From: Cycas panzhihuaensis
Lineage: Eukaryota > Plantae > Cycadophyta
Assembly: GCA_023213395.1 (NCBI GenBank)
Contig: CM041465.1
Location: 163,129,741-163,193,740, forward strand
Reading direction: 5' to 3'
Length of the DNA stretch: 64,000 nucleotides
Under the pieces are notes generated by a model. The model did no database searches, was not told the origin of the DNA, and saw only the letters and a program-made list of their open reading frames with translations. Of the stretch, positions 4,110 through 64,000 are shown piece after piece (the stretch's first letter is position 1; each line of letters starts with the position of its first letter). The translations under genes were made by a program, and so were the position numbers.

Positions 4110-4121
4110 TGGTATCAGAGC
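4110..4121 (+). promoter_or_regulatory. Primer-binding site, tRNA-iMet type
   Basis: TGGTATCAGAGC immediately after the LTR terminal CA. Confidence 0.95.
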
Positions 4122-8930: not shown

Positions 8931-8946
8931 AAACATTAAGAGGGGG

Positions 8947-9150
8947 TGTAAAAGGTAATGGTTTACTTTAAGTTATAATATTTAATGTGAGGGTCATGTA
9001 CCACTTTCTCCTCCTTTCTTAAGTTGACAAGTGGCATTACATGGTTGAGCGATTGCCATATGTACCCACCTTGTACTTGTATATATATATATAATCGTGA
9101 TAAAAATACATTAAGAGAGTGAATTTATTCCTCATCAAGGATTTGTTACA
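8947..9150 (+). repeat. Copia-1 3' LTR
   Basis: TGTAAAAGG...TTACA, preceded by the PPT and followed by TSD CTGCC. Confidence 0.95.
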
Positions 9151-24280: not shown

Positions 24281-25063
24281 CCCATTGTTGGGTCAAGGAT
24301 TTAGTTGCCACACTCCACTATACTAAAGCAATGGCACATAATAAGAGCAAAATAAAGAGAATAAGATTGGGAGGCAAAATGAGAGGTGATAATTATGACT
24401 CTCCCTTTCTCATTTAGCCTTATACATTAGAGGATGTGTATTAGGGTTTTCAAAGGAGTTTCCTACCTAATGACATGATCCTAAAATTTCATTTAAATGT
24501 AAATGAAATTACATTTAACTATGTGACTTAGTTAACTTAAAGTCACCTTCATATAATTAATCTAATGACCTTAATATATTAACATCTATCAATCCCCCTC
24601 TTAATGGTAAAAGATCATTATGATAAAATATATTTTATGAGGCCTTAATTTGAGCCTCATTATTATATTGACACTTTTGTGGGAAAATCCTCACAGGGAA
24701 TAAAAACCCACGAACTTTCTAAGATCTATAGCCCCTTAAATCAAAATGGCTAAGGTGATTCTTGACGTAGCCTAATAGCCAAGTAGCTTAAATGTGTAGC
24801 TTGATCTACGAAGTCTCCATATACAATGTGGTCATCCCCCATGCCCTTTTAGGTTTTCATAGGTTTTAATTTTTTAAGACTAGTACCACCCTTATCCTTC
24901 TATGCCCATAAGGAGTTTGCAGAAATAGGATAGAGTAGAGACTTATTCTTATTATTTTGTACCCATAAGAGATTTTGATAAATGGAATATAGTATGATGA
25001 TCACATTGTTATCTCCTTCAATCAGTCAGAGATGGAGGCTTGGAGGCTGAGCTACCTATAAAA

Positions 25064-28000
25064 CTATTCAAACTCCATCTTTTGTAGTAGTTTGGTGAAG
25101 ATATCATCCATTTGATTTATTATGGGGTGGTAATCTAGTTGAATTATGCTGTCATGAACTAGTTCGCAAATCCTCTGGACTTTCATACTTATGTATTTAG
25201 TATAATCATGAAATACAAGAATTTTTGCCAAGTAGATTGTTGATTGATTATCTACACGAAGGCTAGTAGGACTTGTTTTGGTGATATTCAATGTTTCAAA
25301 TAATTTCCTAAGCTATATCACCTCCTTGTTGGTCTTAGAAGTAGTATTGTATTTAACTTTGGTAGTTGAATCAGCAATTATCTTCTATCATCTAGATCTC
25401 CATGATATTGGTGTTGTTCTAAGAAACATTACATACCTAGACATACATCTCCCTATGTGTTTATCTTCAGCAAAGTTTGAGTCAGTGTATACATATAGTT
25501 TAAACTCTGAATTAGGTTCATACAATAGACCATATTTGACGGTCGTCTTAAGGTACCTCAACACTTATACCACTTCTTGCCAATGATTCTGCTTAGGATT
25601 TGTCATATAACGAGCAAGAATACTAATAGAGTGTGCAATATCAAGTCTTATATTAGTAGCATATATGAGACTGCCTACAAGTTTCATATAAAGTGTTGCA
25701 TCTATCTCTCAATCATCACAATCAACTGTCATTTTGATATTGGATTCTATTAGAGTGGCTATAGTTTGAGTATCTTCTAACTAAAACTTTGTTAGAAGAT
25801 CATTGATGTACTTTTCTTGAGAAAGAAAGATTTTGCCATCTTTTTGAGTGACTTCAATCCCCAAGTAGTATTTCTAAGGTTAAATTGTTTAAATATTTTA
25901 GCTAAGTCATGCTTTAGTTCACTGATTAGTTGTTCATTGTTCCCCATTATAAGCATATCATCCATAAAGATTAAGAGATATGTGACTTTATCTTTTCAAC
26001 ATTTGATGAACAATGTTGCATCAATATCTTGGTAATCAGAAACTTCATATCCAAGTTACCTAATTTTTTCTGACAACTTGGTGAATCAAGTATGAGGGGC
26101 TTGTTTAATGCTATATAAGGACTTTTTAAGCCTACACACCTTATGGTCTAGACTAACAATTTCAAATCCTTAGGCTAAGCCATGTAGATTTCTATTTCAA
26201 GATCGCCATTGAGAAATACGATTTTTACATCGAGTTGGTGAATCTTCCAACCCTGTTGAGCTGCCAAGGCCATAAGAGTTCTGATTGTGGGCCACTTAGT
26301 TGTAGGTGCAAAGACTTGAGTGTAGTCAGTGCCTTCCCTTCATGTGAATACCTTTACTACCAACCTTGCCTTATGTTTTTTAAGGGTGCCATCTGATCTG
26401 TATTTATTTTTATACATCCATTTGTTTTGAACTATCTTTCTTCTAAGTGGTAGGTTGACAAGCTCCCATGTACCATTTTTTATAAGAGATTGATACTCTT
26501 CATTTATGGCATTCCTCCAAGTTATGTATTTTATAGCTTCTTGGTACGAGAGGGGCTCTTCATTGAGAGCAAGATGCAATTCTGTTGGTTCTAACTCAAT
26601 GAAAAGTGATTTCTGTATCTTAACTTTATAGGCACTTTGAGTGCTAATTTTGCCTACCTCATTAGGTCGTATATCCTTATTTAGCTGGAGAGCTTCACAA
26701 GGACCTTAAGTTGGGAATGAGGTCTTCATTTCTCTAACTACATGGACTTCATTTGGATCCTAAAAAGGATCATTTTTCATATTTGTTAAGGAGGATATTG
26801 ATACATCTAGGGAGCATGGTCCATCTGCCACTACTTTACCTTTGTCAACTCTACTATTCTCGAATGGTGGTGCATGATGTGCACTCATTAGTTCAGAGTC
26901 GTAACTACTATCCTCTATGGATCTATTGTCAGATTCCAATAGTTTGAGTAACTCTTGAGTGTCTCCCCCCCTGAATTTTAGAATCTGTACATCATATTGA
27001 GTAGTATTATAATAATGGCAGTTTAGTATTTTGGAGTCTAATTGTAATAATTGATCCTCTATTTCAGTAAACACCACATCCTTGGTGATGATAATCTTCC
27101 ATTATGAAGGTATAAAGACCTTGTACCATTTCTTATCCATAGGGTATCTAATAAAAATGCCTTTAGTTGCCCTGGGCTGGAGTTTGTTTCTATCTCTATC
27201 CAATATATGGGCATAATATATTGAGCCAAATATTTTGAAGTCATAGGCAGTGGGGGCCTATCTAGTCCACTGTTCATTAAGAGAAGTTTCTCCTTTAGAT
27301 GGGCTGACAACATTCATACAATAAACAACTATCCAAATTACTTTTGTCCATAGGTAAGCAGGTGCATTTTTATAAACTAGCATAGGTCAAGCCATATTCA
27401 TAATAGACTTATTCATGCACTCGACAACTCTATTCTGTTGGGGGGTGCCTGCTATTATAGTGTGATGCTTGATATCGTTGTCTCATAGATAGGTTTCAAA
27501 CTCAGTAGAGGTATATTCTTTACTATTATCTGTTTAGAGACACTTAATTTGATAACTTGACTCATTTTTAGTGCGAGTTTTAAAAGCTTTAAAGACACCA
27601 AATGCCTCATCTTTCCTAGTTAGAAAAGCCACGTACACTTTCCTAGTAAAATCATCAATGAAGGATATATAATATAACTTCTGTTTCAATGATGGAATGA
27701 GCATTAGTCTACATAGATCAGAGTGTACTAATTGAAGAGGATGACTCGATTTCCATTGACTATCAATAAAGGGCTATCTATGAGATTTGGCTATGATACA
27801 TACTTCATATTTAGAGGGCTTGGAGGAGAACTTGGGCAGGCTTCAAAGGGTATGACAAAGATCTCTAAGTTGATTGATATGAACATGGCTCATGTGAGCA
27901 TGCTAAAAGCTTCTAGGGATAACTTAGGGTATGTCAAAGTGGTAATAAAAGTAAACTCTTTATCAACAGAAGGGCTTTAAGCACAATTAGCTTCAAAAAA

Positions 28001-29540
28001 TGGGAAGTCATTCAACTTAAATAATTTGCCAGTAAGTTTTCCAGTCAAGACCACTTAATTTGTTGGAGGGTTAATGACCTGGAGAGTTTGGTAATTTATA
28101 GTAACACTAAGATCGAATTCATAAGAGACGAGTGTGGATAAGGAGAGTAGGTTTTATTTTATATTATGAATATATAGGACATCAAGTAATGTAAAGTCTC
28201 TCAAGCCTAGGAGTTTCAAGCATATGTTTTCAATACCTTCAATTAGTTGTTGGGATTTATTAGCCATATGAATGACACCATATATATTAGAATCAAAAGT
28301 TTGATATAGTTCCTGATTGCAGGTCATATGTTGTGTTGTTCCTTTATCCATGATCCATAAGGAGGTGTTTGAAGTTATGTTATTTATAACTCTAAGAGGG
28401 GTTTGCATTAGTGATTCAAAATCACAAGTGGCATAGCCACAATGAGCTTCAAAATACCTCTTAGTTTGATCAATAGTTCTTTCCTCAAGTCTTTGAATGT
28501 GTGCTTGAGTAAAACCTGTACCACCAAATTGTTCTTCACATATTTCATTAACATTATGAGCCTTGTATTTCTATTGAAACTTAGGTAACTTGTATGCAGG
28601 TATACGACAATCTTTTGTAAGGTGTTCTTTTCTATTGTACCTTTTACACATGATAATCTAATTTCTAGTTCCTAAAGTATTGGTTTAGCTTGACTATTTT
28701 GCATTAAAAGGTGGCACTTGGCCTTAAGACTGTCTAGGCTATTGTTGTTGAGGGTTTTATTGACCTTGTGGATGATTTCCTCTACCTCATTCTTTACCTC
28801 TTGCTCGGTTATTTCCTCTACCACGAGAGAGACCTTGATTCTTTGAGAAGTATACTTCTTCTTCCACATCAAAAGCTGCATCCAAAAGAGGATCTAAAGT
28901 TGCAAAATTAGTATCAAAGGTCTTATTAAATTCTATAACCTTCTTTGTAAGAGCTTTAAAGTTAAATGTCTTTAATGTTCCACTTCATTGAAGACTCCCA
29001 AGAAAGTTCTTATAATCAGGTACATGTAGATATGACAATATGAAGAATGCCCATATAATACATTAGGTTTTAAAATATTTGCCTATTGCTTGTTTGATTG
29101 GTCGAAGGAGGTTGATTATTTCATATGCACATCCCTTCTGCATCTTCATCTTATTCATCGTTAAGACTAGATGAACAAATTCAAGGTCAGACTTTGCATC
29201 AAAATTCTTTTTAAGAACCTTAAGGACTTTTTAGGTTATATCATGTTGTTCTTCATTTATTAGATTGTGTAGGGAGTGATAAGTCACCAATAGAATACTT
29301 GCATAAATATTCTCATCATCGGTCTTCTATTGTAATTTAGTTGCAAGATTTGTTGGAGCTACAAGTAGCATTTCTCTAGATGTAGGTGCCATTACTATCA
29401 AAGGAATGACGTGTAAGCTATAGATGGGCTCTCCAAAGGCCCTCATACTTAGCAACATTCTTGAATCCAGTATATCATAGATCCTAATTATCTATCCTTT
29501 TTAAGATGTAGTTTATATTCTACTTAAATGGAGAAGATAT
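25064..29540 (-). pseudogene. Copia-4 gag-pol pseudogene
   Basis: WIMDKGTTQHMT (protease), EPLSYQEA..KHKARLV (RT), RVDNQS..DIFTKL (RH). Confidence 0.9.
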
Positions 29541-32449
29541 GGTGAAGATAACGAAGTAAAAGAGATAGTAAAGAAATAGTAATTAAAAATACCACTGAAA
29601 TGTGTGGCTAATATACCTGGCACAGTAGGGAAAAATATGATTAAGTATCAAGCAATGGTGATAGGCCACCGACACTTATGGCAAATACTCCTAACGCAAT
29701 AGGGTTTGATGATGTGTACAAATAGTAATATAAGGATCACAAAGATAAATGATATATCATGTGATTATAAAATCAAGATTACGTGCATGTAGAAGCCATC
29801 GTGTGGGTACACATAACTAAAAAACCAAGTCTGATGTAGGATGTGTGAACAAACCTAAGCCTCTATCTTAAATATGAAGTAGTTAAGGTGTTAATACTTA
29901 ATGGGGCTTCTGGTATACGCATTAGGGCCTTCACTTATGATACCCGCACCTACGCTTAGTGATGAAATCTAAGTCACAATAGAGCCTAGGTATTCCCAGT
30001 CCTTACCTAGTTCACTAGTGAGTAGCTAGATACCTCCTCCAAAGAGTCAAATGGTACGTGTGTATCCTATGGCTATGATGGATATTAGACCAGGTATATT
30101 TTAATCTTGATTAAAGTTTTTACTTTTCTGAGGTGGTTATCAGGATTATCCCTGATTGGAGGTCGTAAGTATGGCTAACCCATCCCTTCACCATTATTTC
30201 AATTAAAACCATACCCAGTATGAAACTTATACCTCCCTTATAACCCAGGCTTTGACCAATTGTAGTATATTTCAACCAAGGCAAGTATGCATATAAGCAA
30301 AAAACTAGCAGTATTAGTTGTATAGATGAGATTTCTTTTAGGAAATAATGCAAGTTATTTATGAATAACTTGAATTGAACTAAAATGGAAAGATAGCAAA
30401 TGTACTTGCTTGCTTTGTTGTTATTGCTGCTTTATATGTTACTTTACACTATGTGTGGAAATAAAAAGAGCATGCTAGATTTAGTAGAGAAACTAGATGT
30501 TGCTTTCAATCTAAGGTTTTCCTTGCTTTAGTATAATGCTTCTAAATATATTTTAAGAAATTTCAATACAAAAGCCACAAAGGGCCAAAATGCAGATTAA
30601 CTTGCCACTAAAAAGTTAATTTTTGTAAATCTAGATGCATGCTATTTTACCTTATTTTATGATTTTTTTTCTACAAAATTTATAAATAAAAATAAATAGA
30701 CAAAATTTTCTAAAAATTACAAATATGGAGGCCTAAATGATGGAATTTGAATGTATGACAGAAGAAAAAAGTATTCAGAATATTATTTTTGATAAGATAG
30801 TGAAGTCAGATTTCTAAAAAGACATAAAAAAGTTTTGCCTGAAAAAAGCACAAAAGTAGAATCTTACTAGATTTAAAGTCTCATAATCCAAACTTTAGTA
30901 TGTCAAAAGCTTCATCTTGATATGAACATCAACTTTTCCTTCTACATCGTCTTAAAAAATGGCAACAAAACTACTCAAAACACCCTTGCAACATTTTTTA
31001 TGGGGTCGAGTAGGCAAATTTAGCATCCGTCAGAAAACTGCAAAGATCCTATTAACTAGTGGATAAAATTTGATGAGATTTATCTCAAAGTGCTCCAAAT
31101 AACTAGATCCCCTTGGCAAGGTAACCCTACATATTAAATTTTATCAAAATATGAGATGGTCAAATTTGTCATAAAATTTTAGGCCTTCAATGCTTCTAGG
31201 GTTGTTTTAGCAACTAAATAGCTTAAAAAATCAGTCCTTTTCACCTCTAGAATTCTACAAATAGAAAATGTAATAACATACAAAATAATATAATTTTAAG
31301 CTCTATAATACAAAATAAAGTTCTTAAATAAACTCTTAACCTTACATGAATTATGAGTGAAATGCATTAATAGCTTCGTGCAAGCTTAGTGGGAAAATGT
31401 AGTCAACAATGGCTCTGATACTAATTGTTGGGTGAAGGATCTAGTTGCCACACTCTACTACACTAATGTAATAGCACATAATAAGAGTAAAATGAAGAGA
31501 ATAAAATTGAGAACAAAAATAAGAGGTGAGAATTATGACTCTCCCTTTCACATTTAACCTTATATATTAGAGGATGCGCATTAGGGTTTCCAAAGGAGTT
31601 TCCTGCATAATGATATAATCATAAAATTACACTTAAATATAAATGAAATTATATTTAACTATGTGACTTAGCTAATCTAAAGTCACCTTTATATAATTAA
31701 TCTAATGACCTTGATGCATTAACATCCTGAAGGAAAAATAATCATGGAGAATAGGGCAGGACATGAAAGAGATAATCATAAATCAATACATCATTATTGC
31801 ATAGTAGCATGAACATATAAAACTTGTATATTCAATCCATCGTTGTAGAAGAACATTACAAATTTCAATATTGTAGGTGGTATCTAAAGACACTAGGGTT
31901 ACATACCCCTCAAAATATATTGTTTGGGGGAGGAGGGAAATTCCTCAACCCCTAAAATTTAAATAATAATAAAATAATATAAACTTACTCAAAATAAACT
32001 TAACTCAAATAAACTAAACTTACCTTATACTTACCTACATATGTGAGCACCCACATATATAAATTGAAGAGTGTGAGGTGTGCACTCCTAGTTGGAAGGT
32101 GAGAGTGGGGTGATGAGTATTAACCCCAACATTCTCCCCCTCAATAGTCATCACGAACAATGTCTTCTGTTTAAACTTATAGAATTTGTACTTGAAAAAA
32201 ACTTTGAAGATTTATCTTTTAGGTTGATCATTATCAACTATTCTTACCCTTTTAACAACATGTGTCCTTATACCATTGAGTGGCACAAAAAAACTGCAAG
32301 TAAATGAAGTTTGATTCAAAGGTGGATGCATGGCTGTAACTTTGACTTTGTCAACTAGAACATTAAGAAAACTTTGAACTTGAACTTTGTCTTTTGAAAA
32401 TTTTATATTATGAACAACTATCAAATCATCATAACTCTCCTTTATCATA

Positions 32450-34216
32450 TCATAAGATTCATTCTCCCCCTCAAATCGAGGATCAGGTTCTTGTGTAACA
32501 AGATGATCATGTATTTGATTTGTATCTTGGTTTTTTCATTATAATCTACTTGTTCTAGCACCTGTCTCACATGCTCAACAAAATTAATATCAAATACATT
32601 GAGGGTATCTCCTCTATAAGTAGAAATCAAAACATCCCATACAGATTTAGAAGTTGTTAATTCACAAACTTAAAAAAAGACATCATCATTTATAGTGCAA
32701 AATATTAAAGCTAATGCTTCATTATCCTTTTTAATGTTTTCTTTAATACTAAAATCACATTCGTGTTATAAATATTTCTAAAGATTATGTGTAATAAAAT
32801 AATCTTGCATTAGGCATCTTCAAGATCAAAAGTTTGCTCGGTAAGTGCTACATTCCCCGTCTCCCTACTGCGGACTCGATCGTGTGGCCACTGAGCCCGT
32901 CTGGGGTCTACTCTGTAAAGCAAGGGTATCTCTACTTGTGTCGAGCAAGGGGGGACGAGAGAAACCCTATCTTGGAGGGGGTTTGGAAGCTCCCTATCAT
33001 CCCAAAGATTGCTGTCTTTTGGTGGACCTGCTTGAGAAATAAAATTCTTACAAAGTGATAACCTAAAAGAAGGGGTTTACACTGCAAACAGATGTACTTT
33101 ATGTTACCTTGAGGAGGAGTCTATGGACCACATCTTTCCGGGAGTGTTCTTACACGAGGGAGGTTTGGGTATGTTCTTTGGGAAGCTTGAAGTAAACCGG
33201 ATATTCTCGGAAAAGATAAGGGATTCTTGGTTGGCTCGAGAAGTCCTTTCGTGAGTAGGACGTTGTGTTGCATATGGGTTAGTGCTATGCCGATTCTTGC
33301 CTGGAACATATGGAAAGAGAGGAACCGTAGAATCTTCCGCATAAAAGCGGATGGACCGGATCTCTATATATTATAGAATTTGTGAAATTAGAGAGAATGT
33401 TAGGCGTGAAAGAGAAGCCCCGCTGGGTCGAGAGAAGGATTTTGAGCAAGTGGGATATTGCTCCTACCTTCGGGGTGGAAAGGAATAAAGACGTTAAATG
33501 GCTGCCGCCTGAGGAGTCTTGGGTCAAGATAAACTTTGATGGTGCCGCTTAAGGGAATCCTGGCCGGGGAGGTATCCAGGGACCACTTAGGGTCTCCCCT
33601 TTGGGCTTTCATTGAATTTTATGATTGCCGACAAACCATTATCTTTGAGATGCACGCTATGCTTAAAGCGCTGGACCTCATGGTGGAAAGTAATCATCGG
33701 AAAGTGATTATTGAAGGGGATTCTGAGGTTGTGGTGAGGTCCCTGAAAGGGGAGGTCACTCCATCGAGATTCCAATTGCTATTCAATGATGCTAAGGAAA
33801 TCATCAAAAGAATGCTAGATGTCCGTATTAAGCATACGTTGAGAGATGGGAATAAACCACAGATTTTCCGCAAATTGGGAGTGAGACAAATGGCGTGTCA
33901 AATTTGGAAGTCGGATTTTCCTGTGGATCTTTTGGTTCGATAGAGAAGGACTTGATGATACAAAGATGTAGCCGTGGGGCTTGTCCCGCTTTTGTTTTCT
34001 TGTTTCCTGCCTGTTCAGGGGTCATCACGGACTTATACTTATACCCTTTGCCGCGACACTTTTATGATGTACTAGGTTGTGGGATCCTCTCCAAAACCCA
34101 CTAAATTTCATTTTTATTTAATAAAAAAAAAAATAATCTTGCATTGTTCTATGCCACTAGGAAAAATTATGGCCATCAAAAATAGGAAATTGTACTTGAT
34201 CAAGATTGATTGCCAT
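32450..34216 (-). pseudogene. NA-5 truncated copia gag N-terminus, split by L1-B
   Basis: ATG 34216: MAINLDQVQFPIFDGHNFS*WHRTMQDYF, continuing after the L1 with ITHNL*KYL..KKDNEALALIFCTINDDV (DUF4219/UBN2-like pattern). Confidence 0.8.
32812..34129 (+). mobile_element. L1-B: young 5'-truncated L1 (zf-RVT + RNase H + 3' UTR + poly(A))
   Basis: 16-bp TSD AAAATAATCTTGCATT (32796-32811 / 34130-34145); poly(A); WPLSPSGVYSVKQGY, PKIAVFWW, VKINFDGA.KGNPG, IIEGDSE; GC- and CpG-rich compared with its flanks. Confidence 0.95.
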
Positions 34217-35491
34217 TTTATTAATAAAAACTTTAATACATAAAAGGATATACATTTACCAAGCTAAAGAAGTTAATAAATGACAAACTGATATGATTTC
34301 AAATATATATTTTTGAAAGAAATGTAATGCCCTTTGAAAATGAATTAACTAAATGCAACTTTTATAGGTGCAATAGGGAAATAATTTTTTAACAATGATG
34401 AATAAGAAATGTATTTCAATAAATGTATACCTTTTGAATAAATGATAACCTTATAAGATATAATTTCAGATAAAATTTAATATAATGAATATATAAGCAA
34501 ATTTAAAGTGTAACAAATATCCTCTTAAATATGTAAATATGAAATAAACTTTGAAAATGAAAAATAAAATATTAGAATAAGGTATATTGGTGTATCTTAA
34601 ATACTCAAGTTTAGTAGCTTTAAAGCTATACTACACAATATCAGAATAACATGTAACTTTACCAGTATGAAGATTAATGAAAGAACTACTCAATGGAACT
34701 AACTATTTTGAAAACGGGTTCCTGCAAGTCAATATTTTGATGAACTAAATGTATAGTCCTTGTTTTAAGGCCTAACAGGAGCAAAGAGCTCGAAATAGTA
34801 TAAAAATACTAATAAAACTTTATAGAATGCTGTAAAATAGTCAATTGTAGTTTATAAGGTCGTTCAATATACTTTTCAATTGAAAATTTGAGAAATAATA
34901 TATATAAAATGTGTAATAATGTCAGATTAGAGGCTATTATGTACTTCAACTTTAATGGTTTTAAAAATCTAAAAAACCACTTCAAAACTTATAAAAAATA
35001 ATGTCAGTTCGAAGAGGAGTGAGTCAGCTTCCTAACAAAACTAATGGAATTGAATTATATTATAAAAGAAAAAAGTTATAATGAAAATGGCAACAAGTAC
35101 TTTTATGGTAAAAATGTTTAAAAAGTGCTAAAAAGCACTAAAGTGTGACTTTGGTCGATTAAAATAATTCTTAAAAAATAAAATAAATAAAAGGTAATGA
35201 AGCTTGTTGATAATAAATAACTACAGAATAGATCCAGGTAGAAAATAATCTCCCGGTGAGAAAATATAATCTGATAAAAAAAGGTTTTTATGAAAAAGTT
35301 CAAAATGGCTTAAAAAATGAATGACCGACTTTAAACTGACTGATAATGGGTCAAATCAGCTCCAAATGGGTCATATGACTAGTCAAAATTGCACTACAGA
35401 AAATTTTAGATATAATATGATAGGTTTTGTTAGAAACTAATGATCTAGTGAAGCATTATGGCAAAAATTTGCCAATTACCCTATCTAAAAT

Positions 35492-35535
35492 GAAAAAAAA
35501 GAAAAAAAGAAAAAAAGAAAAAAAGAAAAAAAAAA
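35492..35535 (+). repeat. (GA7)n A-rich microsatellite
   Basis: GAAAAAAA repeated about 5 times. Confidence 0.85.
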
Positions 35536-35849
35536 GTTATAATTTTTAAATTGGCCCCTTTAGTAATATGCTATGATCACATAAGAGGGAATGTGACCAA
35601 GGAGCTAAGGTTTGAGGGGGCTTATACCTTTAAACCCCAAATTTGAACTTTTATATAATAAAATTTAATTTTTTGAAACTTTAAAAATAAAAAATATATG
35701 AAACATACAAAAATGAATTGAAAAGAGCATCATCGTCTGGGCTGCCACCTTCGCTGTTGCATGAGGAGCCATTGGGAGACACTGTCACTCTCATCTGCAC
35801 CGCCTTTGGAGATCACCAATTGCAGGGATAGTGGCATTGGACAGTGGGT

Positions 35850-36066
35850 ATGAATGAAGCCTACCATGTGTTTGACAAAATGTCTATCAGAGACGTGTTT
35901 ATATAGACTACGATCATTATAGGATATGCTCAGAACTAGCAGGGCAAGCAGGCCTTGGATTTGTTTTTCCAAATGCAATGGGATGACATTAAGCCTGACC
36001 ACTTCATGTTTACCAATGTCTTGAGCACATGTACCAGCGTGGAAGCTCTGAAACAAGGGAGAGAGA
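35850..36066 (+). pseudogene. PLS-class pentatricopeptide-repeat (PPR) gene fragment
   Basis: A single frame reads MNEAYHVFDKMSIRDVFI*TTIIIGYAQN*QGKQALDLFFQMQWDDIKPDHFMFTNVLSTCTSVEALKQGRE, matching the S-P-L motif consensus, with two in-frame stops. Confidence 0.9.
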
Positions 36067-36784
36067 GTGCATTGGATAGGGCAGAGGATAGAGCAACCGA
36101 GAGGGGAGGGTTTATGTTGTCTGCGCAAACTATTTTTTTTCAGCCTCAAATTAAGTTGACCAAGCAGGAATTTGAGGAAGGTTTTGAATCTCGTATCCAC
36201 CACAATGCATCTAGAAGTGGCACATGAGCAAAAATCACATGCAGGTTAATAGTTGTCGAGATCAGAGTTTTCTTTATTTACTTGTCATGGGATGGAAAGT
36301 AGTTTTCCAGTTCAAGCAGGCACAGACTGAAATCGACAGATATTTGAAAACCATTCTTCTCATTACACTTGTTAACACTATGCTGAAGGAATGACTATAG
36401 GTCATTGATAAAGACCAGAGGGAATACACGCTTAACAAGGAGGGGGAGAAGTTTAGCTCAAGTGAGACTACCTGTCTCACTAATTATGCTCAACAATTTT
36501 TAGACAATAGTGCAATAATTATTCAATGCTTACATGACATACACTGAGTTGCATAGTTCTTGGAAAATTGGATATTTTGGCAGTACTAACTTGGTAGTTT
36601 AATTATGAGTACATGCCTTGACTCGTAGTAGGACAGACTCAAGAAATGAGAAATGACATGACCATTTTCCTTTGTTATTATTATTTTTTTGCATACAATG
36701 CTTTATTCTATTGAAGTTAGGGCACATTCATATATCCATTATTGGTGAATGCACAAGTTCTTCCCATTATCATGCAAATTGAGT

Positions 36785-36845
36785 GGGCTTAGTTATCATG
36801 GGGTGCAATGGCCTGCAATAAAGCTCCTTGAGCTTTTTAATGAAG
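36785..36845 (+). pseudogene. Possible second PPR motif remnant
   Basis: GLSYHGVQWPAIKLLELFNE resembles G(Y/L)AxHG..EALELFNEM; short and degenerate. Confidence 0.4.
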
Positions 36846-37619
36846 TACACGTGTGTACCTGTTGATACCAAATGGGGTATTAAGCTTGAATCTGTTGTCA
36901 AATCCTTGGAAGAATATAATAGTAATCAAGAAATTGCTAAAAAAACTTTGTAGAATGGTTTAACACCCTAGAGATACAAGACCATGTATAATTTCTCTAG
37001 AGGAGACTTGTCAAGCTTTTCTTTCTATCCATCAATGCACACACATATCATTTTTTTTTTTGGGTGAAAAAAAGGAATGATGGTGGTTTTAAGCTCCTAA
37101 AACAACCAAGAGTCTAAAAAGACTAAATAGATATATCAAAGAACCATGAAGGCTCTTTCTGAGTTGAACATATACCAAACTCAAAATCTTATAAGTTTAT
37201 TCCAAAAAATAAGGAAAGATAAAAAAAAAATATTGAAATCTGGTTCAAGTGCTTTTGAGTACTTTTCTCTTTTATTTTGTTTGTTGTTTTTTTGGTGATT
37301 CAATAGAGCGCAAATAAACTAGAAAATTTTCAAATACAACAGAAATATATCAAATAAATAAAATGCGTATATATTTGAATTTGAAATATTTTAAATATGT
37401 GAAGCAGATATATCAGATAAATGAGAGATATATGTTTTAGATCTAAAAATAAATATGAAAAACCTGGTAAACAACTATAGAACTTTTAAGGACAAGATCT
37501 TCTTCAAACTTTCAAATGCATTCTTCTAATAGATAGATCTGCTCTATATGCTTCTCTAGAAAGATGAATATGCCCCAAAATTTATAGATTTAAAAGAAGA
37601 ACTTAAAAAAATGGTTAAA

Positions 37620-38200
37620 TATATGAAAAAATATACAGATCTGAAAGAAAACTTAAATAAATGTTGTAGATATAAAGTAAATATGGCAGATCTGTAGCCA
37701 ATATTACAGATCTGAAAGAATGTATAGCAGATCTAAAGTAAATATTATAGATCTGTAGTCAGTATTGCAAATCTAAAATAAATCAACCAGAAAATGGTGA
37801 AATAATTAATAAAATAAGCAAGTCTAAAAGAAAACTTTAATAAATATTGTAGATCTTAAATAAGTATAGCATATCTAAATAAAATATTGTAGATCTAAAA
37901 TAAATAAACTAGAAAATAGTGAATAATTTATAAAATAAGCAAATCTAAAAAATATATAGCAGATATGAAAAAACATATAACAGATATGAGAAAATATATA
38001 GAAGATTTGAAGGAAACTTGAGTAGATATTGTAGCTGTAAACAAAATAAACCAAAAAACTGTTAAATATTTGATAAAATGAGCAGATCTGAAGGATATAT
38101 AGCAAATCCAAAGAATATGTACCAGATCTAAAGTAAAATATAGCAGATTTGAAAAACTTTAAATAAATATTGCTTGCAGTTGAAATCCTGTGTAGATATG
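37620..38200 (-). repeat. Degenerate ~20-bp tandem array with AGATCT core in the NA-5 leader
   Basis: Repeated AATATT(A/G)CAGATCT(G/A)AA units; homologous to 63150-63440. Confidence 0.85.
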
Positions 38201-39023
38201 AAAAAGTATTAGATAAAAAGACGAAATATGCTTGAAAAATGCCAAATATATGATAAAAATATATAAAACTTGTTAATAAAACCTCTTGTGGAGTGATAAA
38301 ACTTGATGTTTACTGTTTGTAGCTATATACTTACATAAATCTGGAAAAAATCTGAAATATCTTTGTTATAGCACAAGTATATCTTCAAGAATAATCAAAT
38401 CTATGATAAAAATATATAAGAATTTGCTGAAAAAACTTGCAGAGAATGAATATAACCGATATTTCTTACTTGTGAGTAAATTTGCTGTAGATATCAATAA
38501 ATCTTCTTACTTCTTCAAAGAAAACTTCAACAATGGATCATAAACCCGGTCTAATACCAAATGAATGAAAAATAATTCAGCTAAACTTGGCTCTGATACT
38601 AGATGAAGGAAAAATAATCATATAGAACATGGCAGAACATGAAAGAGATAATCATAAATCAATACATCATTGTTGCATAGTAGCATAAATACATAAAACT
38701 TATATATTCAATCCATTATTGTAGAAGAGCATTACAAATGTCCAATATTATAGGTGGTGTCTAAAGACACTAGGGTTGGACACCCCTCAAAATATATAGT
38801 TTGGAGGAGGAGAGAAACTCCTTAACTCCTAAAATTTAAATAATAATAAAATAATATAAACTTAACTTAAAATAAACTTAACTCAAATCAACTAAACTTA
38901 CCTTATACTTACCTACACATGTGAGCACCCATATGTATAAATTGAAGAGTGTGAGATGTGCACTCCTGGTTGGAAGGTGGGAGTGGGGTGATGAGCATTA
39001 ACCCCAACACATCCATCACCCAT

Positions 39024-41920: not shown

Positions 41921-44900
41921 TTTTTTTGTTTTGATTAGATAAAAGAAAGAATCTTGGGTTTTGAACTAGGATCCCAAAACCTTTTACATCAAGTTCGCAT
42001 CAATCTAATTAGCAAGGTGGCCATGATAAGCCCATGGCCTAACTAAACCCTCTCAGAATAGCAAAACATCCTTGCCATGACAAGCCTAGTGGCTAGCTCT
42101 ATTGCTTCACTCTATTCCCATCTTCCTCAACCAGTCTCTTTATTTCCTTTAGTAGATCCTCTCTGTAGACTCAAGCTCTTATGTGATTAACCCCTAGTTA
42201 GGTAATTTATCTGCCACTCTATTACCTTCTCTGTAGGTGTGTGTCAAGTGATAATTTTCAAGTCCTCATAGAACTTCTTGAGTATCCTTAATTATATCCT
42301 GAGTTCTCCAATCTAATATAGATATACCTTTAAGCAGGTTGATCACATTAAGTGAGTCCCTTTCTAGGATCACCTTGTTATGACCTCCTTGTATAACCAT
42401 ACAAACAGCTTTCCTCATAGCTTCCATCTCATCCTTGTGGTTTATCTGGTGACTATAGTACTTAGCATAGCCCACATAACCTTCCCTTTTAAATCTTTAT
42501 AAATACCCTCACCCCTAGCTTCTCTTAGGTTATCTTTCGAGGCCCCGTCAAAATTAATCTTCATCCGAGGGTCTTTTGGGGGGTTCCAAATACAACTTCT
42601 TTTCCACTCATTTGAAATCCTTGTGGTTATTCCCCACCTTTTCAAAATAAAGCTTTCTCTTAGCAATGCTTTTTGATCCTCTCTAGGCTTCATATTTCTC
42701 CCTATCTTCGAGGTGATGATGTTAAAAATTCTAGTCTCATCCATCTGCTTATTTTGGAACACCCTCATGTTCATCTCCTTCCATTGATTCCACATCATTA
42801 ATAGAAGGGGGGCTTTCCAAATGCTAGATAATCATATGCTTCTGAACAGGTTGCTCTAGGCTAGCCATTGATCTACCAAATGTTTTTAAGGGACCCAACA
42901 AACCTCAAAGAGGTCCATTATTGACCTCCACACCCCTAATAAAGATGTAATGGAGGACAATATAATCTACTAACTCCTCCTTGTTGCAATAGAGGACATA
43001 CTTATTTAGCATTACAAAACCTCTCTTCTTAAGGTTATCCACTGTAAGAATTTTACTTTTTAGACATGTCCACCAAAATACTATAATCTTAGGAATCAGG
43101 TCTAATTTCTAGACCCCTTCAAAAAGTGATAACTTTCAATCTCCCCTTTCGAGGCACAAGAAATGATATCCTTGTTTGACTGTATAGTCCCTAAACTAGG
43201 ATGATAACCATACCATAGAATCTGCTACCCCTCTCTTTGGGATATAATACTTCTTAATTTCTTTTAATAAGACTTCCACCCTTTCCTAAACTGCAGCCTC
43301 CCCTCGAAGGTCCTTAAAGCTCCTCCATTTTCTCTCCAATCCCTCCCCACTCTAATAATCCTTCATGTAGGTCCTATAGCTTCTCCTGCACAAGGGCTAC
43401 AAGGGGGCTAACTCCTCCCTTCTACTAAATTTCTCATCTCCACACCATACATCCTCCCAAAATTGTATGGTTCTCCCATCTCCCAGCTTCCAATGAGCTC
43501 CAGCCTTTAGCATACTTCTATATTTTAGGATGCTCCTCCAAATGGTAGAACCATTGGAGGGGAGCAGGTTCTCTTTTAAAAACTGACTACCCTAGATATA
43601 TTTATGAGAAAGGATCTTGTCCCATGTGCCCCCTTACTTTTTGGTCAAACGCTAGCTGATCTTTACCACAAGAGTATTATTATATAATGGTAGTTGTCTA
43701 AGGTTGAGTCCTCCTGCCCATTTTGGGCGGCATACCTTCTCCCATTTTACCAAATGAATTCTATCTTTCTCCTCCATTCTCGACCATAGAAATCTCTTCT
43801 AGATAGACTCCAACACTAATGTCACCCATGTCGGTACTCTAAATATTAACATCGAGTAAACTGGGATACTTTAGAGAGTTGTAGCTACACATTATAGTTT
43901 CTAAGCTTGACTAAGAAGAGCTCCTTTCCACCCAACCAATTTCCTTTGAATCCTATCTATGATAGGGTCCCATATTTCCTTTATCATTCCTCTAATAAAT
44001 AAAGGCATTCTAAGGTACGTGGTCGACAACTTCTTGACTGCCATCTCAAGGATTTTGTTGATCCTTCATTGAACATTCTCTGGCATGTTGATGAAGAACA
44101 CACTGCTTTTATTGAAATTTATCTTTTGATTTGTGGCTCACTCAAACCTTTCCAGACCTCCTTTAAGGGTGCAGGCTTCCCCTAGTGCTGCCTTACCTAA
44201 GAAGATATTATCATCCACAAATTGATAATGAACCATGTTTCTGACACCTGAGGTAGGATTTAGTCCCTGAATTACCCTACATCTCCTAGCCTCTTTCGTG
44301 GTCCTACCTAACATTTTTGCCATGATAATAAATAAATAGGGGGATAATGGGTCCCCTTGCCTCAACCCTATAAAGCCTTGGAAGAATCTTGAAGACTTTC
44401 CATTAATAATAACATAATATTGTGGGTTAGAAATACATAATTTCACCCACTCCCTCCAAATATTTCCAAAGCTAAAAACTTCCATGCATTCCATTAGGCA
44501 TTCCCATGAAACTCTATCATAGGCTTTCGACATATCAATTTTAATTAACATGCCAACTTCCTTTCTTTGGTTGGTCAAGTGGAGGGTTTCGTGGATAACT
44601 ATTATGCCATCCATAATCTGTCTGCCTTGCAAAAAACCATCTGATTCTTAGAGATGATCCCTGGGAGGATCTTTTTTAATATGTTAGCTAGGACTTTTGT
44701 CAATATCTTATACTTAACATTGTAGAGGCTTATGGGGTGAAAATCCTCCATCCTTCTTGTACCCTCCTTCTTTGGGATCAGCATTATAAAAGTTGCTTGC
44801 CAATCTCCCAAAAGTTTCTGATTCCTTTAGAACTCATGCAAGGCTTCTATCAAATCCCCTTTTATTATATCCCAAAAGTCCTGTAAGAAGCTAGGAGGAA

Positions 44901-46953
44901 AACCATCTGGTCCCAGTGCTTTCTCTCTCTTCATGCCAAACACTACTTCTCTTAATTCCTCCATGGTGAAAGGGGCTTCCATCTTTTCATTTTGATTTAC
45001 CTTGCCTAGCTTAGGGATTGAACTCAGAAAGTCCTTCCTAACATCCTTATCTATAAATCTTGGTTCTTCAAAAAATTCTGAAAAATATTCAATAGATGTA
45101 TTCTTTAAGCCTTCTAATCTATTTACTTCCTCCATGTCTTTCCCATGGAGGCTACGTATTTTGTTGCTAGCTCTATGCTTCACCATTATCATATGGAAAA
45201 ATTTAGTATTCCTGTCTCTCTTAACTAACCGAATGGCCCTAGACTTTTGTCTCCAATGGACCTCCTCTCTGCTTAGGATCTCCTCTAAGTTCTTCACCAG
45301 ATCTCTCTCCTCTTTATCTAGCTCCTCAGTTCTACCTTCCTCCTAGATCTTATTTTTAGTAGTTTTCAAATCTCTTAACATTTGGTCCTTTTCTACAAAT
45401 ATATTTTTAAAGACTTCTTTGTTCCACCTTTTTACTTCCATCTTAATCTAGTCTAGCTTCCTCAAGAATCTATACATTGCATAACCATGAACTGGGACTC
45501 TCCACTAGTCCTTAGTAAGCTGCCTGAAGTGTGGGTATCTAGTCCACAACAACTTGAATCTAAAAGGGGATCCTTTATGCTTCTCAGAGTTAGAGAACAC
45601 AAACTGGAGGGGAGAGTGGTCTGATAATGTTCTCTGAAGCACTTCTAGGTAAAAGTCGTTGTATCTTGCTGACCATTCATAGTTAAGCATCACCCTATCT
45701 AGCTTCACTTGGATATGTTGGTTACCCAATCTTCTATTTGACCAGGTGAAGTTTGCTCCTCTGAGCGGGACATCCACCAGCCCACCCCTTTGCATAAAGC
45801 TACTAAGGTCTTGCATGTTGCCCGTTTACCCCTCCTAGCCCCCTCTCTTTTACCCTAGTATAAGGGGAGTATTTAAGTCCTCCACCACTAGCCAGGGGGT
45901 AATGCAACCTCTGTGATCCACTAGAATCCTTTCTTAGAGAGATCTTCTCCCCTCTGGCTGATTTGGAGCATAAATATTTGTAGTTAACCATTTTGTGTTT
46001 GTCCTCCTATAGGTGAGCCATATAGAGATATATAACCCTCTTGTTTTGAAGACTTCTCTTACCTAATTTGCTAGGTTCCAAAGCACCATCAAACCCCTTG
46101 TACCTTTGTTACTATTTATAACACCAATTTTAACTTTTTTCCATACTTTTTTCTTTAACCCCATTGTTATTATCTAGCTTGGTTTCCTGCAAGAAAATCA
46201 AATTTGGTTGTTCCCTTAACCTTAATTCCTTCAGCACCTACTGTTTTGAAGGAGCATTCACCCCTTTGATATTCTAGGAGATTATCTTCATCTCTTTCTC
46301 CTAGGTTTCCAGATCTCCCTTGGATCCTCTTTGTGCAGTTCACGACCCTCATCTCTGGGTCTTAGTCTTGGCCCTTCCAGGAAACCATCCTTTAGAGTCT
46401 TTTGGTTTCCCTGATTTACTTGGAGAGCTACTTCCCTCTCTTAAAGTATCTTAAGCGAGGGTCTACCCACTCTCCTCTTTGACCTAATGTCCACCATCTT
46501 CTTTTGGCCAGTCTCCCTTTGCTCCTCCAACGTTAACTCTCTCTTCTCTTATTTCCTCTTCTCCCTGTTTCCCTACTGATTCCATTTTCTCATTTAAGTC
46601 TTCCTCTCAGCCTTCCTTGAGGGGGTCTTCCTTCCCTTCTTCCTTCTCTTTCTCTTGGTCCTCTTCACCCTCTTCTAGGGTATCCTCTAGGTCCAGTTTA
46701 AAATATGTCTTGAAGCTGTAGTGTTAGGTCTCTCATAAGGCTCTACCTTGGTATTTTCCTTAGTGGTATCATTCTCCTCTTACCTCTCCTTCTCCTCTTT
46801 TCTAATCTCTGGGAATTTTTGGGGTAAGTGTCCTATCCTTCTACATGCCGAGCACCTAAAGTTTTCCACTTCATAAATTAGAGGTTAGTCCCTGCTCTTA
46901 TCCTCCATATCAATCCAAACATTCTCTAGGAGTGGTTTGTCAATTCTTGCTAA
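41921..46953 (-). mobile_element. L1-C: degenerate L1 LINE with complete ORF2 span and 3' half of ORF1, related to L1-A
   Basis: Poly(T) at 41921-41932; ORF2 ATG at 46291; APE (FTWSN, LDRVM, SDHSP), RT (KIDMSKAYDRVSW, GLRQGDPLSPYLF, QFVDD), RNase H (KINFDGAS); ORF1 knuckle (CSACRRIGHL) at ~46825-46870. No TSD found. Confidence 0.93.
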
Positions 46954-50200: not shown

Positions 50201-50413
50201 ATCTTTCTCATCATACCATAAAAAATTTCTTTTAGCACTTTGTTCAATTTTAACTCTACATATTATATACATTATTGTATTGTACAAGCCCATAAATGAG
50301 CCAAAGTAGGACATATTATGGTTGTTTCACTACCATTATTTTGTTGAACAAGATAACCCAATCATACTATACCTAATCCTCAAGGGAAGTAATGATGGTT
50401 AAAACTGAAAATA
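47298..50413 (+). repeat. Element 6 5' LTR
   Basis: Collinear with 53188-56309 along its whole length, e.g. GATTAACTCAAAACAAGTTA and CTCATTAAGAAGTAAAGGTCCTTC. Confidence 0.88.
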
Positions 50414-50699
50414 GTTAGCAACCATACTAGGGAAATCCCCTACATTATTTTTTCCTCTTTTTCATTTTCACTATTGTAATATTAGATCTAATGTTTTACT
50501 ATATGAACACCCTAGTGAGGAGGTCATACACACAACCATTGGAAGCTAAAATCATTAACAACAATATATTGAACTCTATTCAAAGAAAGAATATAGAAGA
50601 AGGCCTACCAAGAATCTTAAAATGATTGAGTATATAGAAAAAAATAGATAACCTCATAGGCCTATAATTCATAGGATTATGATTTATAGAAAATATGGT

Positions 50700-56100: not shown

Positions 56101-56309
56101 TTCCTATCATACCATGAAAAATGTCTTTTAGCACTCTATTCACTTTCAACCTTCTATAGTATGTATATTATTATATTGTATTAGCCTATAAGTGAGCCAA
56201 GGTAGGACATATTGTAGCTATTTCACTATCATTATTTTATCAAACAAGTAGACCCAGTCATATTATAACTAATTCTTGAAGAAGGCAATGATGGTTAGAA
56301 CCAACAATA
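53188..56309 (+). repeat. Element 6 3' LTR
   Basis: Starts TGTTACCCC after the purine tract; homology to the 5' LTR ends at ...AATA. Confidence 0.88.
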
Positions 56310-56314
56310 GGTAT

Positions 56315-61963: not shown

Positions 61964-62446
61964 TGGTATTAGAACTAGGGCAGCATACGAGCCATTAAGT
62001 GTAGCACTTACTATTCCTCCAACTATGCCTACTCTCTCTCTAATGCCTGATTTGATTATATGTTGGGTTCCATGATAATTTGATGGTGAAATTTTATATT
62101 GTATTATATTGAGAGCATGATATTAATCATATTATTCAGGGTAGGTTATAATATTATTGACAAACTAAAAAATATGACAGGCAGATTTATTCATGTATAT
62201 TAAGATCAAAGTATTATATTATTTAAATATGTTCTATTTATGAAGCCCTATGCTCAGATTCTGTGCAGAGGAGATGATGTCCTTCAGCCATGATCATAAC
62301 TAACTATGACCAACCACCGTCCGTTGAAGAAATATAAAATATAGAGTCACTGACAAATCTAAGAAACTATAATTGCCCAGATACCCACAGCCAAATAAAG
62401 ATATGCATAGCACCTTGTTCATGTCCTCATGTTCTAGGAAACGATG

Positions 62447-64000
62447 TATTTAGGTTAATGATCATCACCCCACTCCCACCTTTCAACCAAGAGTACACAC
62501 CTCACTCTCAATAATTTACACATGTGGGTGCTCACATATGAAGGTAAGTATACGGTAAGATTTGATTTAATTTGAGTTAAGTTATATTTTATTGTTGTTT
62601 GAATTTTAAGGGTTGAGGAGTTTCTCTCCTCCCCCAAACTATATATTTAGAGGGGTGTGTAACCCTGGTGTTTTTACACACTGCCTACATTTGGGCATTT
62701 GTAATGCTTTCTCTAAAAAATAGAATGAACACAAAAGCTCTTGTGTTTATGCAACAATGATGTATTGATCTATAATTATTTGTTTATGTTCTGCCCTATT
62801 CTTTATCACATTATTTTCCTTCATTTAGTATCAGAGCTTGGTTAAGTTCCATCATCTGATATTAGAGCCAAAGTTTGTTAGCCTATTGAAGTTTTTATGA
62901 AGAGCAAGAAGATTTATTGATATCTGCAGCAGATTTATTCACAACAAACAAAGATTGGTTATATTCATTTTCTGAAAAGTTTATTAGCAATTTCTTGTAT
63001 TTTTTTATTAGAGATTTGATTATTCTTGAGTTATACTTGTGAAATAACAAATATATTTCAGATATTTTTTTAGATCTGTGTAGGAGCATAGCTACAAACA
63101 ATAAATATCAAGTTTTTATCAAATATTTGATCATTTTCTGGCATATTTTTGTTTATTTATCTAATATTTTTTTCAGATCTGTGTAGAAGCACAACTGCAA
63201 GCAATATTTATTCAAGTTTTCTTTAGATCTGCTATATATTCTTTAGATCTACTTATTTTATCAAATATTTGATAAATTTCTAGTCTATTTTATTTATATC
63301 TATAATATTTGCTTCAGATCTGTAATATTAGCTTTAGATCTGCAATATCTTCTTCAGATCTACAATATTTTCTTTAGACCTATAATATTTTTTGTAATAT
63401 TTTCTTCAGATCTGTAATATTTGCTTCAGATATGTATATTTTATTAAATATTTGATAATTTCTTAAATATTTAGTCCACTTACTCAATATATTTTTTAAG
63501 ATCTAGGCAAGTTTTGGTGTATATTCAGCCTAACAAGCTCTCTAGAGAAGTTATATTATAGCAAATCCGTCTACTAGAAGAATTTAAAGTCTATTTTCTG
63601 CAAATCAACCACATATGCATTACCAAGTTCTTCGTATATTTTTAAATTTAAATATTTATATATTTCTGGGTTCTGTAACATATCTTCTCCAGTATATTTA
63701 AAAGATTACAGATACAAATATATGTATGTTTTCATATTCAACTCTATGTGAGCTTTGTCTAACAAGGGGTCACTATTCTTAGTCAGAGATTTGATCTAAC
63801 TTCTATTACTGGTTTGATAAGCACTCTTCCATTTGCATGAACATTTGTATTTAAGATAATACTATGTCTTCCTGTGATTGCATATAAACATTACTGTTAG
63901 TATATTGCTCCATACATTACATTCAAACATTAGTTTACTCTATTCCTACATCCTCACTAGATCTCATATTATGCTTGGTTCTTATATACGTTTTAAAGAA
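62447..64000 (+). mobile_element. NA-8: second, diverged member of the NA-5 family (5' LTR, double PBS, repeat array), running off the window
   Basis: 62447-62823 is the reverse-complement homologue of the NA-5 LTRs; PBSs at 62826-62837 and 62857-62869; leader homologous to NA-5 38540-37360. Confidence 0.9.
63150..63440 (+). repeat. 20-bp tandem array (consensus TRYAATATTTKCTTYAGATC)
   Basis: Four consecutive 20-mers at 63301-63380 with exact period, plus degenerate flanking copies. Confidence 0.9.

What the first reader, a model, noticed from the sequence alone, without database searches (positions are those of the whole stretch)
31728..39009. Non-autonomous LTR family with an apparent cargo slot carrying antisense host PPR fragments (NA-5/NA-8)
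Seen: NA-5 is a complete TSD-bounded unit, reading 5' LTR, double PBS, 20-bp palindromic array, ~1.8 kb of non-TE-looking sequence with PPR motifs, AT-rich leader, truncated gag, double PPT, 3' LTR, with no pol. NA-8 aligns with it through LTR, both PBSs, array and leader, then stops aligning at about 37360 vs 63730, just where the PPR-bearing region begins. Established: LTR elements can transduce host gene fragments. Inference: this may be an undescribed gene-capturing shuttle family with reinforced cis signals and variable payload, mobilised in trans by a copia partner.
Basis: partly seen in the sequence, partly recalled or inferred. Interest (0 to 1): 0.8.

Follow-up and report, generated by a model that had tools for sequence, protein, structure and literature searches.

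The report
Retrotransposon carrying backwards host mRNA mosaic
A dead plant jumping gene without copying enzymes holds a 1.2-kb patchwork of pieces from at least five host messenger RNAs, the three identified ones pointing backwards; it likely picked them up while being copied, and parts of the patchwork recur at other genome sites, which makes it a known kind of gene capture with an odd orientation.

Summary
NA-5 (31728-39009, minus strand) is real: LTRs 370/404 identical, CATCC target-site duplication, copia gag stub, no pol. It is not a PPR tract but a ~1.2-kb mosaic (35850-~36950) of at least five host transcripts: one PPR motif, two unidentified transcripts, MCA1 and TIM8. The MCA1 piece crosses an exon junction that holds an intron in 9 of 9 genomic MCA loci, so capture was from RNA. 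Public DNA contigs show amplification after capture: 3 distinct contigs bridge the PPR/second-gene joint, and 8 of 9 contigs at one MCA1 site share this copy's change of a conserved proline. Cargo depth is about 1-3% of leader depth, so only a small subfamily carries it. A fixed slot with swappable payload is not shown: relatives diverge at several points, and NA-8's last 270 bp show no host gene. No partner was found. Multi-gene capture by LTR elements is known (Bs1, mouse 'Super' retrocopy, conifer surveys). The odd point: 3 of 3 identified pieces are antisense, whereas the standard switch gives sense.

The parts
31723..31727 (.). 5-bp target-site duplication, left copy (CATCC)
31728..32131 (-). 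3' LTR of NA-5
   Evidence: 370/404 identical to the 5' LTR, K2P 0.091
32134..32144 (-). polypurine tract next to the 3' LTR
32464..32474 (-). second, upstream polypurine tract (15-bp exact repeat of the first; the gag frame runs into it)
32604..32741 (-). copia-type gag stub (PF14223 positions 32-77 of 172), in a frame with stops
   Evidence: E 7e-7
32796..32811 (.). 16-bp TSD of the LINE, left copy
32812..34129 (+).
34130..34145 (.). 16-bp TSD of the LINE, right copy (16/16 identical)
34146..34216 (-). start of gag (ATG at 34216); recognised by eye from a recalled copia gag N-terminal motif, no Pfam hit of its own
34217..35725 (.). AT-rich non-coding leader between cargo and gag
   Evidence: no Pfam hit in 6 frames
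35726..35849 (.). GC-richer segment of unknown origin; almost no RNA or DNA contigs lie on 35741-35805
35850..36059 (+). cargo piece 1: one PLS-class PPR motif with flanks, two stops
   Evidence: PPR_2, E 1e-5; 46% identity to Ginkgo Gb_04028
36061..36175 (+). cargo piece 2: 115 nt of an unidentified 3221-nt host transcript (84% identical); + orientation likely (open frame continues into the host letters on both sides, read by eye)
   Evidence: record 10; searches found no name
36170..36232 (.). cargo piece 3: 63 nt of another host transcript (90%); 6-nt overlap with piece 2; orientation not determined
   Evidence: record 11
36240..36448 (+). cargo piece 4: spliced MCA1 (MCAfunc) mRNA piece crossing the exon 1/2 junction at 36389/36390, two stops
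   Evidence: (E 2e-24), 28, 29, 32, 39 record 12 (90%)
36449..36836 (+). cargo piece 5: TIM8 C-terminal coding part (to about 36547) and, inferred, its 3' UTR
   Evidence: (E 0.006), 37, 38, 39 records 13-16
36883..36950 (.). probable cargo piece 6 (RNA contig begins at 36883; right end approximate)
   Evidence: tables 2 and 7
36976..37300 (-). subfamily-variable leader; relatives leave this sequence at several points
   Evidence: tables 2 and 7
37301..38547 (-). family-wide leader with a degenerate 20-bp array (12 AGATCT cores at 37439-38129); shared with NA-8 to 37369; high depth where laid (to 37600)
38548..38559 (-). second PBS-like motif, part of a duplication of LTR end plus PBS
38590..38601 (-). 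PBS (tRNA-iMet type; consensus recalled), 1 mismatch
38604..39009 (-). 5' LTR of NA-5
39010..39014 (.). 5-bp TSD, right copy (CATCC)
62445..63723 (+). NA-8: related 5' LTR (62445-62823), two PBS motifs (62826, 62857), array and leader
63724..64000 (.). NA-8 tail to the window end: no match to NA-5 on either strand, no Pfam hit

Best explanation
NA-5 is a pol-less copia-type LTR retrotransposon whose leader holds a mosaic of at least five host mRNA pieces, which reverse transcriptase likely stitched together by jumping between co-packaged RNAs, and which was likely copied onward as passenger of a small subfamily that a partner's enzymes would have mobilised. Shown: insertion as an LTR unit (TSD), no pol, pieces of at least five transcripts abutting, one piece spliced, several diverged genomic copies sharing derived changes and one inter-gene joint. 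Inferred: capture inside the particle by microsimilarity-guided template switching; linkage of the sister copies to this LTR family; trans-mobilisation. For the backwards orientation I favour, at about 40%, switching onto mRNAs during plus-strand synthesis, which predicts that every piece is antisense to the element. The cargo is decaying (stops, conserved residues lost) and is best read as neutral passenger. A LINE later inserted into gag.
For: Spliced origin: 9 of 9 genomic MCA loci (about three distinct sequences) have a GT..AG intron exactly where the cargo reads through; the host RNA contig aligns across it at 90% while a host genomic contig stops at exon 1 (records 12 and 4). Mosaic: RNA contigs tile 36061-36836 with loose host sequence at the joints; MCA1, TIM8 and PPR identified. 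Microsimilarity: 6-nt overlap at piece 2/3 and 6 shared letters at MCA1/TIM8 (not tested against chance). Amplification after capture: 3 of the 24 listed pieces are DNA contigs of 84-88% identity bridging PPR/piece 2 by more than 31 letters each side; at 36357 (conserved Pro lost) 8 of 9 contigs carry the window's allele and only the host-gene contig the host allele; same pattern at 36285 (conserved Ala lost; host allele depth 5.1 of 61.6); a contig from a second organism shares these alleles. No TIR, CACTA end pair or TSD around the cargo (longest direct repeat 8 bp, the shuffle mode). Overlapping short contigs run from 36587 to 37580 into the high-depth leader in two organisms.
Against: No single contig spans cargo and LTR; all bridging pieces are 100-230 nt, so family linkage of the sister copies is a chain inference. 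Depth along the cargo is patchy (0 at 35741-35805 and about 2 at 36131-36260 in run X1), and one bridging contig stops matching at 36175, so the whole mosaic is not shown to be constant. Only one exon junction was tested. The standard minus-strand switch predicts sense pieces, so the orientation needs an extra step. No partner is in hand, and no whole genome was available.
Confidence: 0.72

Rival explanations
1. The mosaic was built in sense inside another retroelement (LTR or LINE chimera) and entered this family's leader backwards as a DNA block, by nested insertion with later loss of its ends or by inversion, then spread with the subfamily.
For: Explains uniform orientation with only the textbook mechanism. 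Nested insertion is common here: NA-5 sits in another element's LTR and holds a LINE.
Against: No + strand PBS within 2 mismatches inside the element; the + strand PPT-like hits near the cargo lie upstream of it (35612) or inside it (36438). No TSD above chance. The TIM8 3' UTR lies inside the mosaic, not at an A-tailed end. NA-8's tail does not match NA-5 inverted.
Confidence: 0.3
2. A dedicated shuttle family with a fixed cargo slot whose payload is exchanged between members.
For: The leader is variable beyond about 37170-37370: 10 contigs in X1 and 2 in X7 share one alternative sequence at 37172, and NA-8 diverges at 37369. Cargo depth tends to fall with distance from the leader, and one sister copy stops matching at 36175, which fits stepwise change of cargo.
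Against: At least five breakpoints rather than one; three alternative sequences tested have no match in the window (0 of 3) and none is shown to be host-derived; NA-8's tail has no Pfam hit; cargo depth about 1-3% of leader depth.
Confidence: 0.12
3. A Helitron or Pack-type DNA transposon carrying retrocopy fragments inserted into this copy and is multi-copy on its own.
For: Helitrons often hold several gene fragments with a bias to one orientation.
Against: No TIRs or CACTA end pair; the MCA1 piece is spliced; contigs chain from the cargo into the family leader. Helitron ends were not formally scanned.
Confidence: 0.08

Closest known systems
LTR-mediated retrocopies, including the mouse 'Super' retrocopy of four genes (Tan et al. 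2016, PMC5131818; abstract and passages read)
   Same: Partial spliced mRNA pieces from several genes inside an LTR pair, about 6-nt microsimilarity at joints, further copying shown by shared differences from the parent gene.
   Different: Here at least five donors in 1.2 kb, placed in the leader upstream of gag rather than replacing an ORF, and antisense to the element, whereas that model gives sense pieces.
Maize Bs1 (Elrouby and Bureau 2001, 2010; paper not held; seen only as cited in PMC5131818 and PMC7264820)
   Same: Plant LTR element with pieces of three unlinked host genes.
   Different: Bs1 is cited as forming a hybrid protein; this cargo is antisense, has stops and has lost conserved residues.
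Gene capture by maize Sireviruses (Muyle et al., bioRxiv 10.1101/777037; passages read) and by TEs in gymnosperms (PMC13477047; passages and section 12 read)
   Same: Copia-type elements with captured exons; 15% of capturing Sireviruses and 13.7% of capturing TEs in the 23-plant survey hold two or more fragments; Sirevirus captures show no orientation bias, so antisense pieces are known.
   Different: In the passages read, those surveys do not show spliced, multi-donor, uniformly antisense chains; the gymnosperm paper's main text has no hit for 'antisense' or 'orientation'; the maize study found no high copy numbers after capture.
TR-GAG elements (Chaparro et al. 2015, PMC4350172; passages read)
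   Same: LTRs, 5-bp TSD, PBS, PPT, PF14223 gag, no pol.
   Different: Gag here is an N-terminal stub of about 130 codons with stops and a LINE in it; the element is 5.9 kb without the LINE (TR-GAG under 4 kb) and carries host cargo.

Membership tests
Non-autonomous copia-type LTR retrotransposon | Paired TG..CA LTRs with 5-bp TSD | tested here: met
Non-autonomous copia-type LTR retrotransposon | PBS and PPT present, no pol | tested here: met
Non-autonomous copia-type LTR retrotransposon | Autonomous partner with related LTR | tested here: inconclusive
   only NA-8 matches in the 64-kb window; no genome held; 0 hits in metagenome and viral contigs
LTR-mediated retrocopy (Tan et al. 2016) | Partial, intron-less mRNA inside the LTR pair | tested here: met
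   MCA1 exon 1/2 junction, (one junction only)
LTR-mediated retrocopy (Tan et al. 2016) | Microsimilarity at switch points | tested here: inconclusive
   6 nt at 2 of 4 inter-gene joints inspected; no chance test; element-side joints not resolved
LTR-mediated retrocopy (Tan et al. 2016) | Secondary copying with shared differences from the parent gene | tested here: met
   8 of 9 contigs share the derived allele at 36357; 3 contigs bridge one joint
LTR-mediated retrocopy (Tan et al. 2016) | [quoted passage not shown] | tested here: not met
   PPR, MCA1 and TIM8 read on +; gag, PBS and PPT on -
TR-GAG | One ORF for the Gag precursor | tested here: not met
   N-terminal stub with stops, split by a LINE
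TR-GAG | Length under about 4 kb | tested here: not met
   7282 bp; 5948 bp without the LINE
Pack-MULE / Pack-CACTA | TIRs and own TSD around the cargo | tested here: not met
Helitron with captured fragments | 5' TC, 3' hairpin and CTRR end (recalled) | not tested
   no dedicated scan was run
LINE-made processed pseudogene | A-tail at the 3' end of the last mRNA piece and a TSD | tested here: not met
   no TSD above shuffles; the nearest A-run (37218-37227) lies in higher-depth leader with no RNA match

The most novel reading that the evidence does not exclude
This family captures host mRNAs backwards because reverse transcriptase jumps onto co-packaged mRNAs while extending the plus strand, hopping across five or six transcripts; backwards cargo brings no poly(A) or splice signal into the element's RNA, so it survives, spreads and may grow piece by piece at the hypervariable leader. 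Each copy would then transcribe antisense RNA to several host genes.
Probability: 0.3. Interest if true: 0.65.

Novelty: new variant of a known kind. Interest (0 to 1): 0.42.

Why it matters
Gene capture by LTR elements is common in large plant genomes, but surveys rarely separate RNA from DNA routes or record orientation. This is a clear, checkable case of an RNA-derived chain of at least five donors that faces against its carrier and was copied onward. If such chains are generally antisense, the textbook minus-strand switch is not the only capture route, and these elements are candidate sources of antisense or small RNA against the donor genes. Practically, such copies inflate counts of PPR, MCA and TIM8 'genes' in annotation.

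Tried and rejected
A 25-nt LTR motif found 0 matches in metagenome and viral contigs. A second PPR motif near 36780-36850 was suspected by eye and rejected (tblastn E 0.08, no Pfam hit; RNA contigs place the stretch in a likely UTR). A DYW domain was suspected at 36380-36450 and rejected: it is MCA1/TIM8. A similarity of 36900-36970 to the element's own leader is not above shuffles (score 43, shuffle median 39). A CACTA-like motif at 35392 has no matching end. Weak Pfam hits VDE, SIKE, PAP2_3 and SRA_like were treated as chance. Inversion test with NA-8's tail was negative. Three loose-end sequences of relatives have no match in the window, so no 'empty slot' allele could be mapped. No RNA holder was listed for the stretch, which says nothing on expression; RNA contigs are host transcripts, not transcripts of the element. 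Reads were laid only on 35676-37600, so LTR, gag and LINE copy numbers are not measured. Earlier notes by place and by sequence: none. Host clade is not settled: the best of 8 PPR hits is Ginkgo, while the MCA piece is about equally near Ipomoea (60%) and Picea-cluster (57-60%) proteins. Literature: 10 searches found no paper on this family or on plus-strand capture of mRNA by plant LTR elements; most subscription papers are outside the library, and I did not open the supplements of PMC13477047 (Tables 38-39) or see those of the bioRxiv paper (Fig. S11c), which may bear on novelty.
Full report
Structure. NA-5 spans 31728-39009 on the minus strand. Its LTRs are 370 of 404 sites identical (K2P 0.091) and CATCC lies on both sides. 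It inserted a few bases from the outer end of the LTR of an older element (24284-39018), whose sister LTR shows the empty site and which has its own CCCAT duplication. PBS, PPT and gag all read on the minus strand. All 30 read-through frames over the interior were scanned with Pfam (15, 15): the hits that matter are a gag stub (PF14223), PPR, MCAfunc, Tim10/DDP and two LINE domains. A tblastx against the rest of the window, which holds several decayed copia pol genes that a control pol finds, gave only LINE matches and noise.

Cis signals. The second PBS belongs to a short duplication of LTR end plus PBS, in NA-5 (22 of 27 identical) and in NA-8 (17 of 22). The two PPTs are a 15-bp exact repeat 330 bp apart. 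The array is a degenerate 20-bp repeat with a 6-bp palindromic core, 12 times in NA-5 and 10 in NA-8. Whether any of these helps mobilisation was not tested.

The cargo. Eight PPR proteins hit only one place in the window, 35850-36065; the best is Ginkgo Gb_04028 at 46%. Pfam found an MCAfunc piece (E 2e-24); a full HMMER search returned 60 MCA-like proteins, the best named MCA1. Directly behind it, in frame, lies the C-terminal part of TIM8 (Pfam E 0.006; only PDB hit is TIM8, E 0.34; top three atlas hits Tim10/DDP at 0.83-0.87). Laying four public runs on 35676-37600 showed that contigs of a probable RNA run of a related organism tile the cargo: a 3221-nt transcript at 36061-36175 (84%), a 674-nt one at 36170-36232 (90%), MCA at 36240-36448 (90%), TIM8 at 36449-36654 (90%) with further pieces to 36836 (likely its 3' UTR, inferred), and another from 36883. 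Each continues with host sequence unlike the window beyond its joint; the TIM8 loose end reads as the upstream TIM8 protein (by eye, motif recalled). So at least five donors abut within about 1.2 kb. The three identified pieces read on +, against the element; piece 2 probably does too; pieces 3 and 6 are undetermined.

RNA origin. Nine genomic MCA loci from public contigs (about three distinct sequences) all have a GT..AG intron at the point where the cargo reads straight through (9 of 9). Many gene calls made on genomic DNA, including distant ones, break off at the same residue (not counted). In run X1 a 1008-nt host-like contig matches only exon 1 (36237-36377), while the RNA contig crosses the junction. 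Only this one junction was tested. Two of four inter-gene joints inspected show about 6 shared letters, the size reported for template switches; this was not tested against chance.

Copied after capture. Of 24 listed pieces (1577 not shown), 3 X1 DNA contigs bridge the PPR/piece-2 joint by more than 31 letters each side at 84-88% identity. At MCA site 36357, where the window has lost a proline conserved in all 12 proteins compared, 8 of 9 overlapping contigs share the window's letter and only the host-like contig (depth 5.1 of 72.7) has the host letter; sites 36272, 36285, 36298 and 36367 show the same split. A contig from a second organism (run X7) shares the window's letters there. One X1 contig appears to span the spliced junction (inferred from the distances in tables 3 and 4). 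So a clade of pseudogenised, cargo-type copies exists in at least two organisms. Divergence among copies (12-16%) is at or above the LTR divergence (9%), which fits cargo present before NA-5 inserted (inference). Against a constant cargo: depth is patchy (0 at 35741-35805, about 2 at 36131-36260 in X1), which may be biology or the 80% cut-off on short contigs, and one bridging contig stops matching exactly where piece 2 ends.

How common. Summed contig depth is 1700-7200 (X1) and 180-740 (X7) on the shared leader, 126-451 (X1) on 36976-37300, and 0-117 (X1) or 0-4 (X7) on 35741-36845. Of 41 raw reads in X23 none lies on 35741-36650. Depth is no copy number, but a gap of one to two orders says the cargo marks a small subfamily of a large family. 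No contig links cargo and LTR directly; short contigs overlap in a chain from 36587 to 37580.

The slot idea. NA-8 is a more distant relative (LTR K2P 0.16-0.17) and aligns to 37369/63723; its last 270 bp match nothing in NA-5 on either strand and no Pfam family. Relatives in the runs leave NA-5's sequence at 37120, 37172 (10 contigs in X1, 2 in X7), 37206, 37291 and 37296 (299 more loose ends not shown). Three of these alternative sequences were sought in the window and not found. This is a hypervariable leader, not one shown slot, and no second payload is shown. NA-5's LTR matches only NA-8 in the window, so the partner is hypothetical.

Mechanism. The best reading is capture inside the particle by reverse-transcriptase template switching, followed by passive spread (0.72). 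The usual switch during minus-strand synthesis puts mRNA in the element's sense. Uniformly backwards pieces follow if the growing plus strand jumps onto mRNAs (my inference, about 40%); the main rival is a sense mosaic built elsewhere and moved in backwards as a DNA block (0.3), for which no ends remain. Survival bias against sense pieces, which would bring poly(A) signals such as TIM8's, could add to either (inference). With only three or four oriented pieces the uniformity is suggestive, not proven.

Comparison. Multi-gene LTR retrocopies are known: Bs1 (three genes; seen only as cited) and a mouse retrocopy of four genes plus an Alu. Sirevirus captures show no orientation bias and 15% hold two or more fragments. 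Gymnosperm TEs hold about 400,000 captured fragments per genome. The element works like an LTR-mediated retrocopy but fails the sense-orientation feature, and it fails two TR-GAG features. The host is a large-genome land plant, possibly a gymnosperm (weak). Earlier AI notes on other genomes describe similar chains; they are leads only.

Verdict. Real, richer than first described, a new variant of a known kind; the shuttle-with-slot reading is not shown. Interest 0.42.

Noticed in passing
window 24284-39018: Older minus-strand copia-type element with CCCAT target-site duplication; NA-5 inserted a few bases from the outer end of its 5' LTR (LTRs 87% identical).
   Followed up: partly
window 32812-34129, 131-3435, 42324-45624: Three related LINE copies; the one inside NA-5's gag is a 5'-truncated 3' end with a perfect 16-bp TSD.
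   Followed up: partly
window 47300-50417 and 53190-56313: A 3.1-kb direct repeat, 75% identical, 5.9 kb apart, with no Pfam hit in six frames of the first copy; possibly very long LTRs or a tandem non-coding unit.
   Followed up: partly
window 3904-9150 and 14474-19509: Two decayed full-type copia elements with iMet PBS and LTR pairs 92% and 97% identical; their LTRs are unrelated to NA-5's, so neither is an evident partner.
   Followed up: partly
window 36441-36448: The MCA1/TIM8 joint contains the same purine octamer as the element's PPT, on the opposite strand; chance or a role in priming or switching is untested.
   Followed up: no
window 36911-36975: Narrow spike of DNA contig depth (1536 in X1) at the leader-side edge of the cargo; source of the repeat not found.
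   Followed up: partly
window 59900-61430: Decayed copia pol upstream of NA-8's LTR (control tblastx hits); relation to NA-8 not examined.
   Followed up: no
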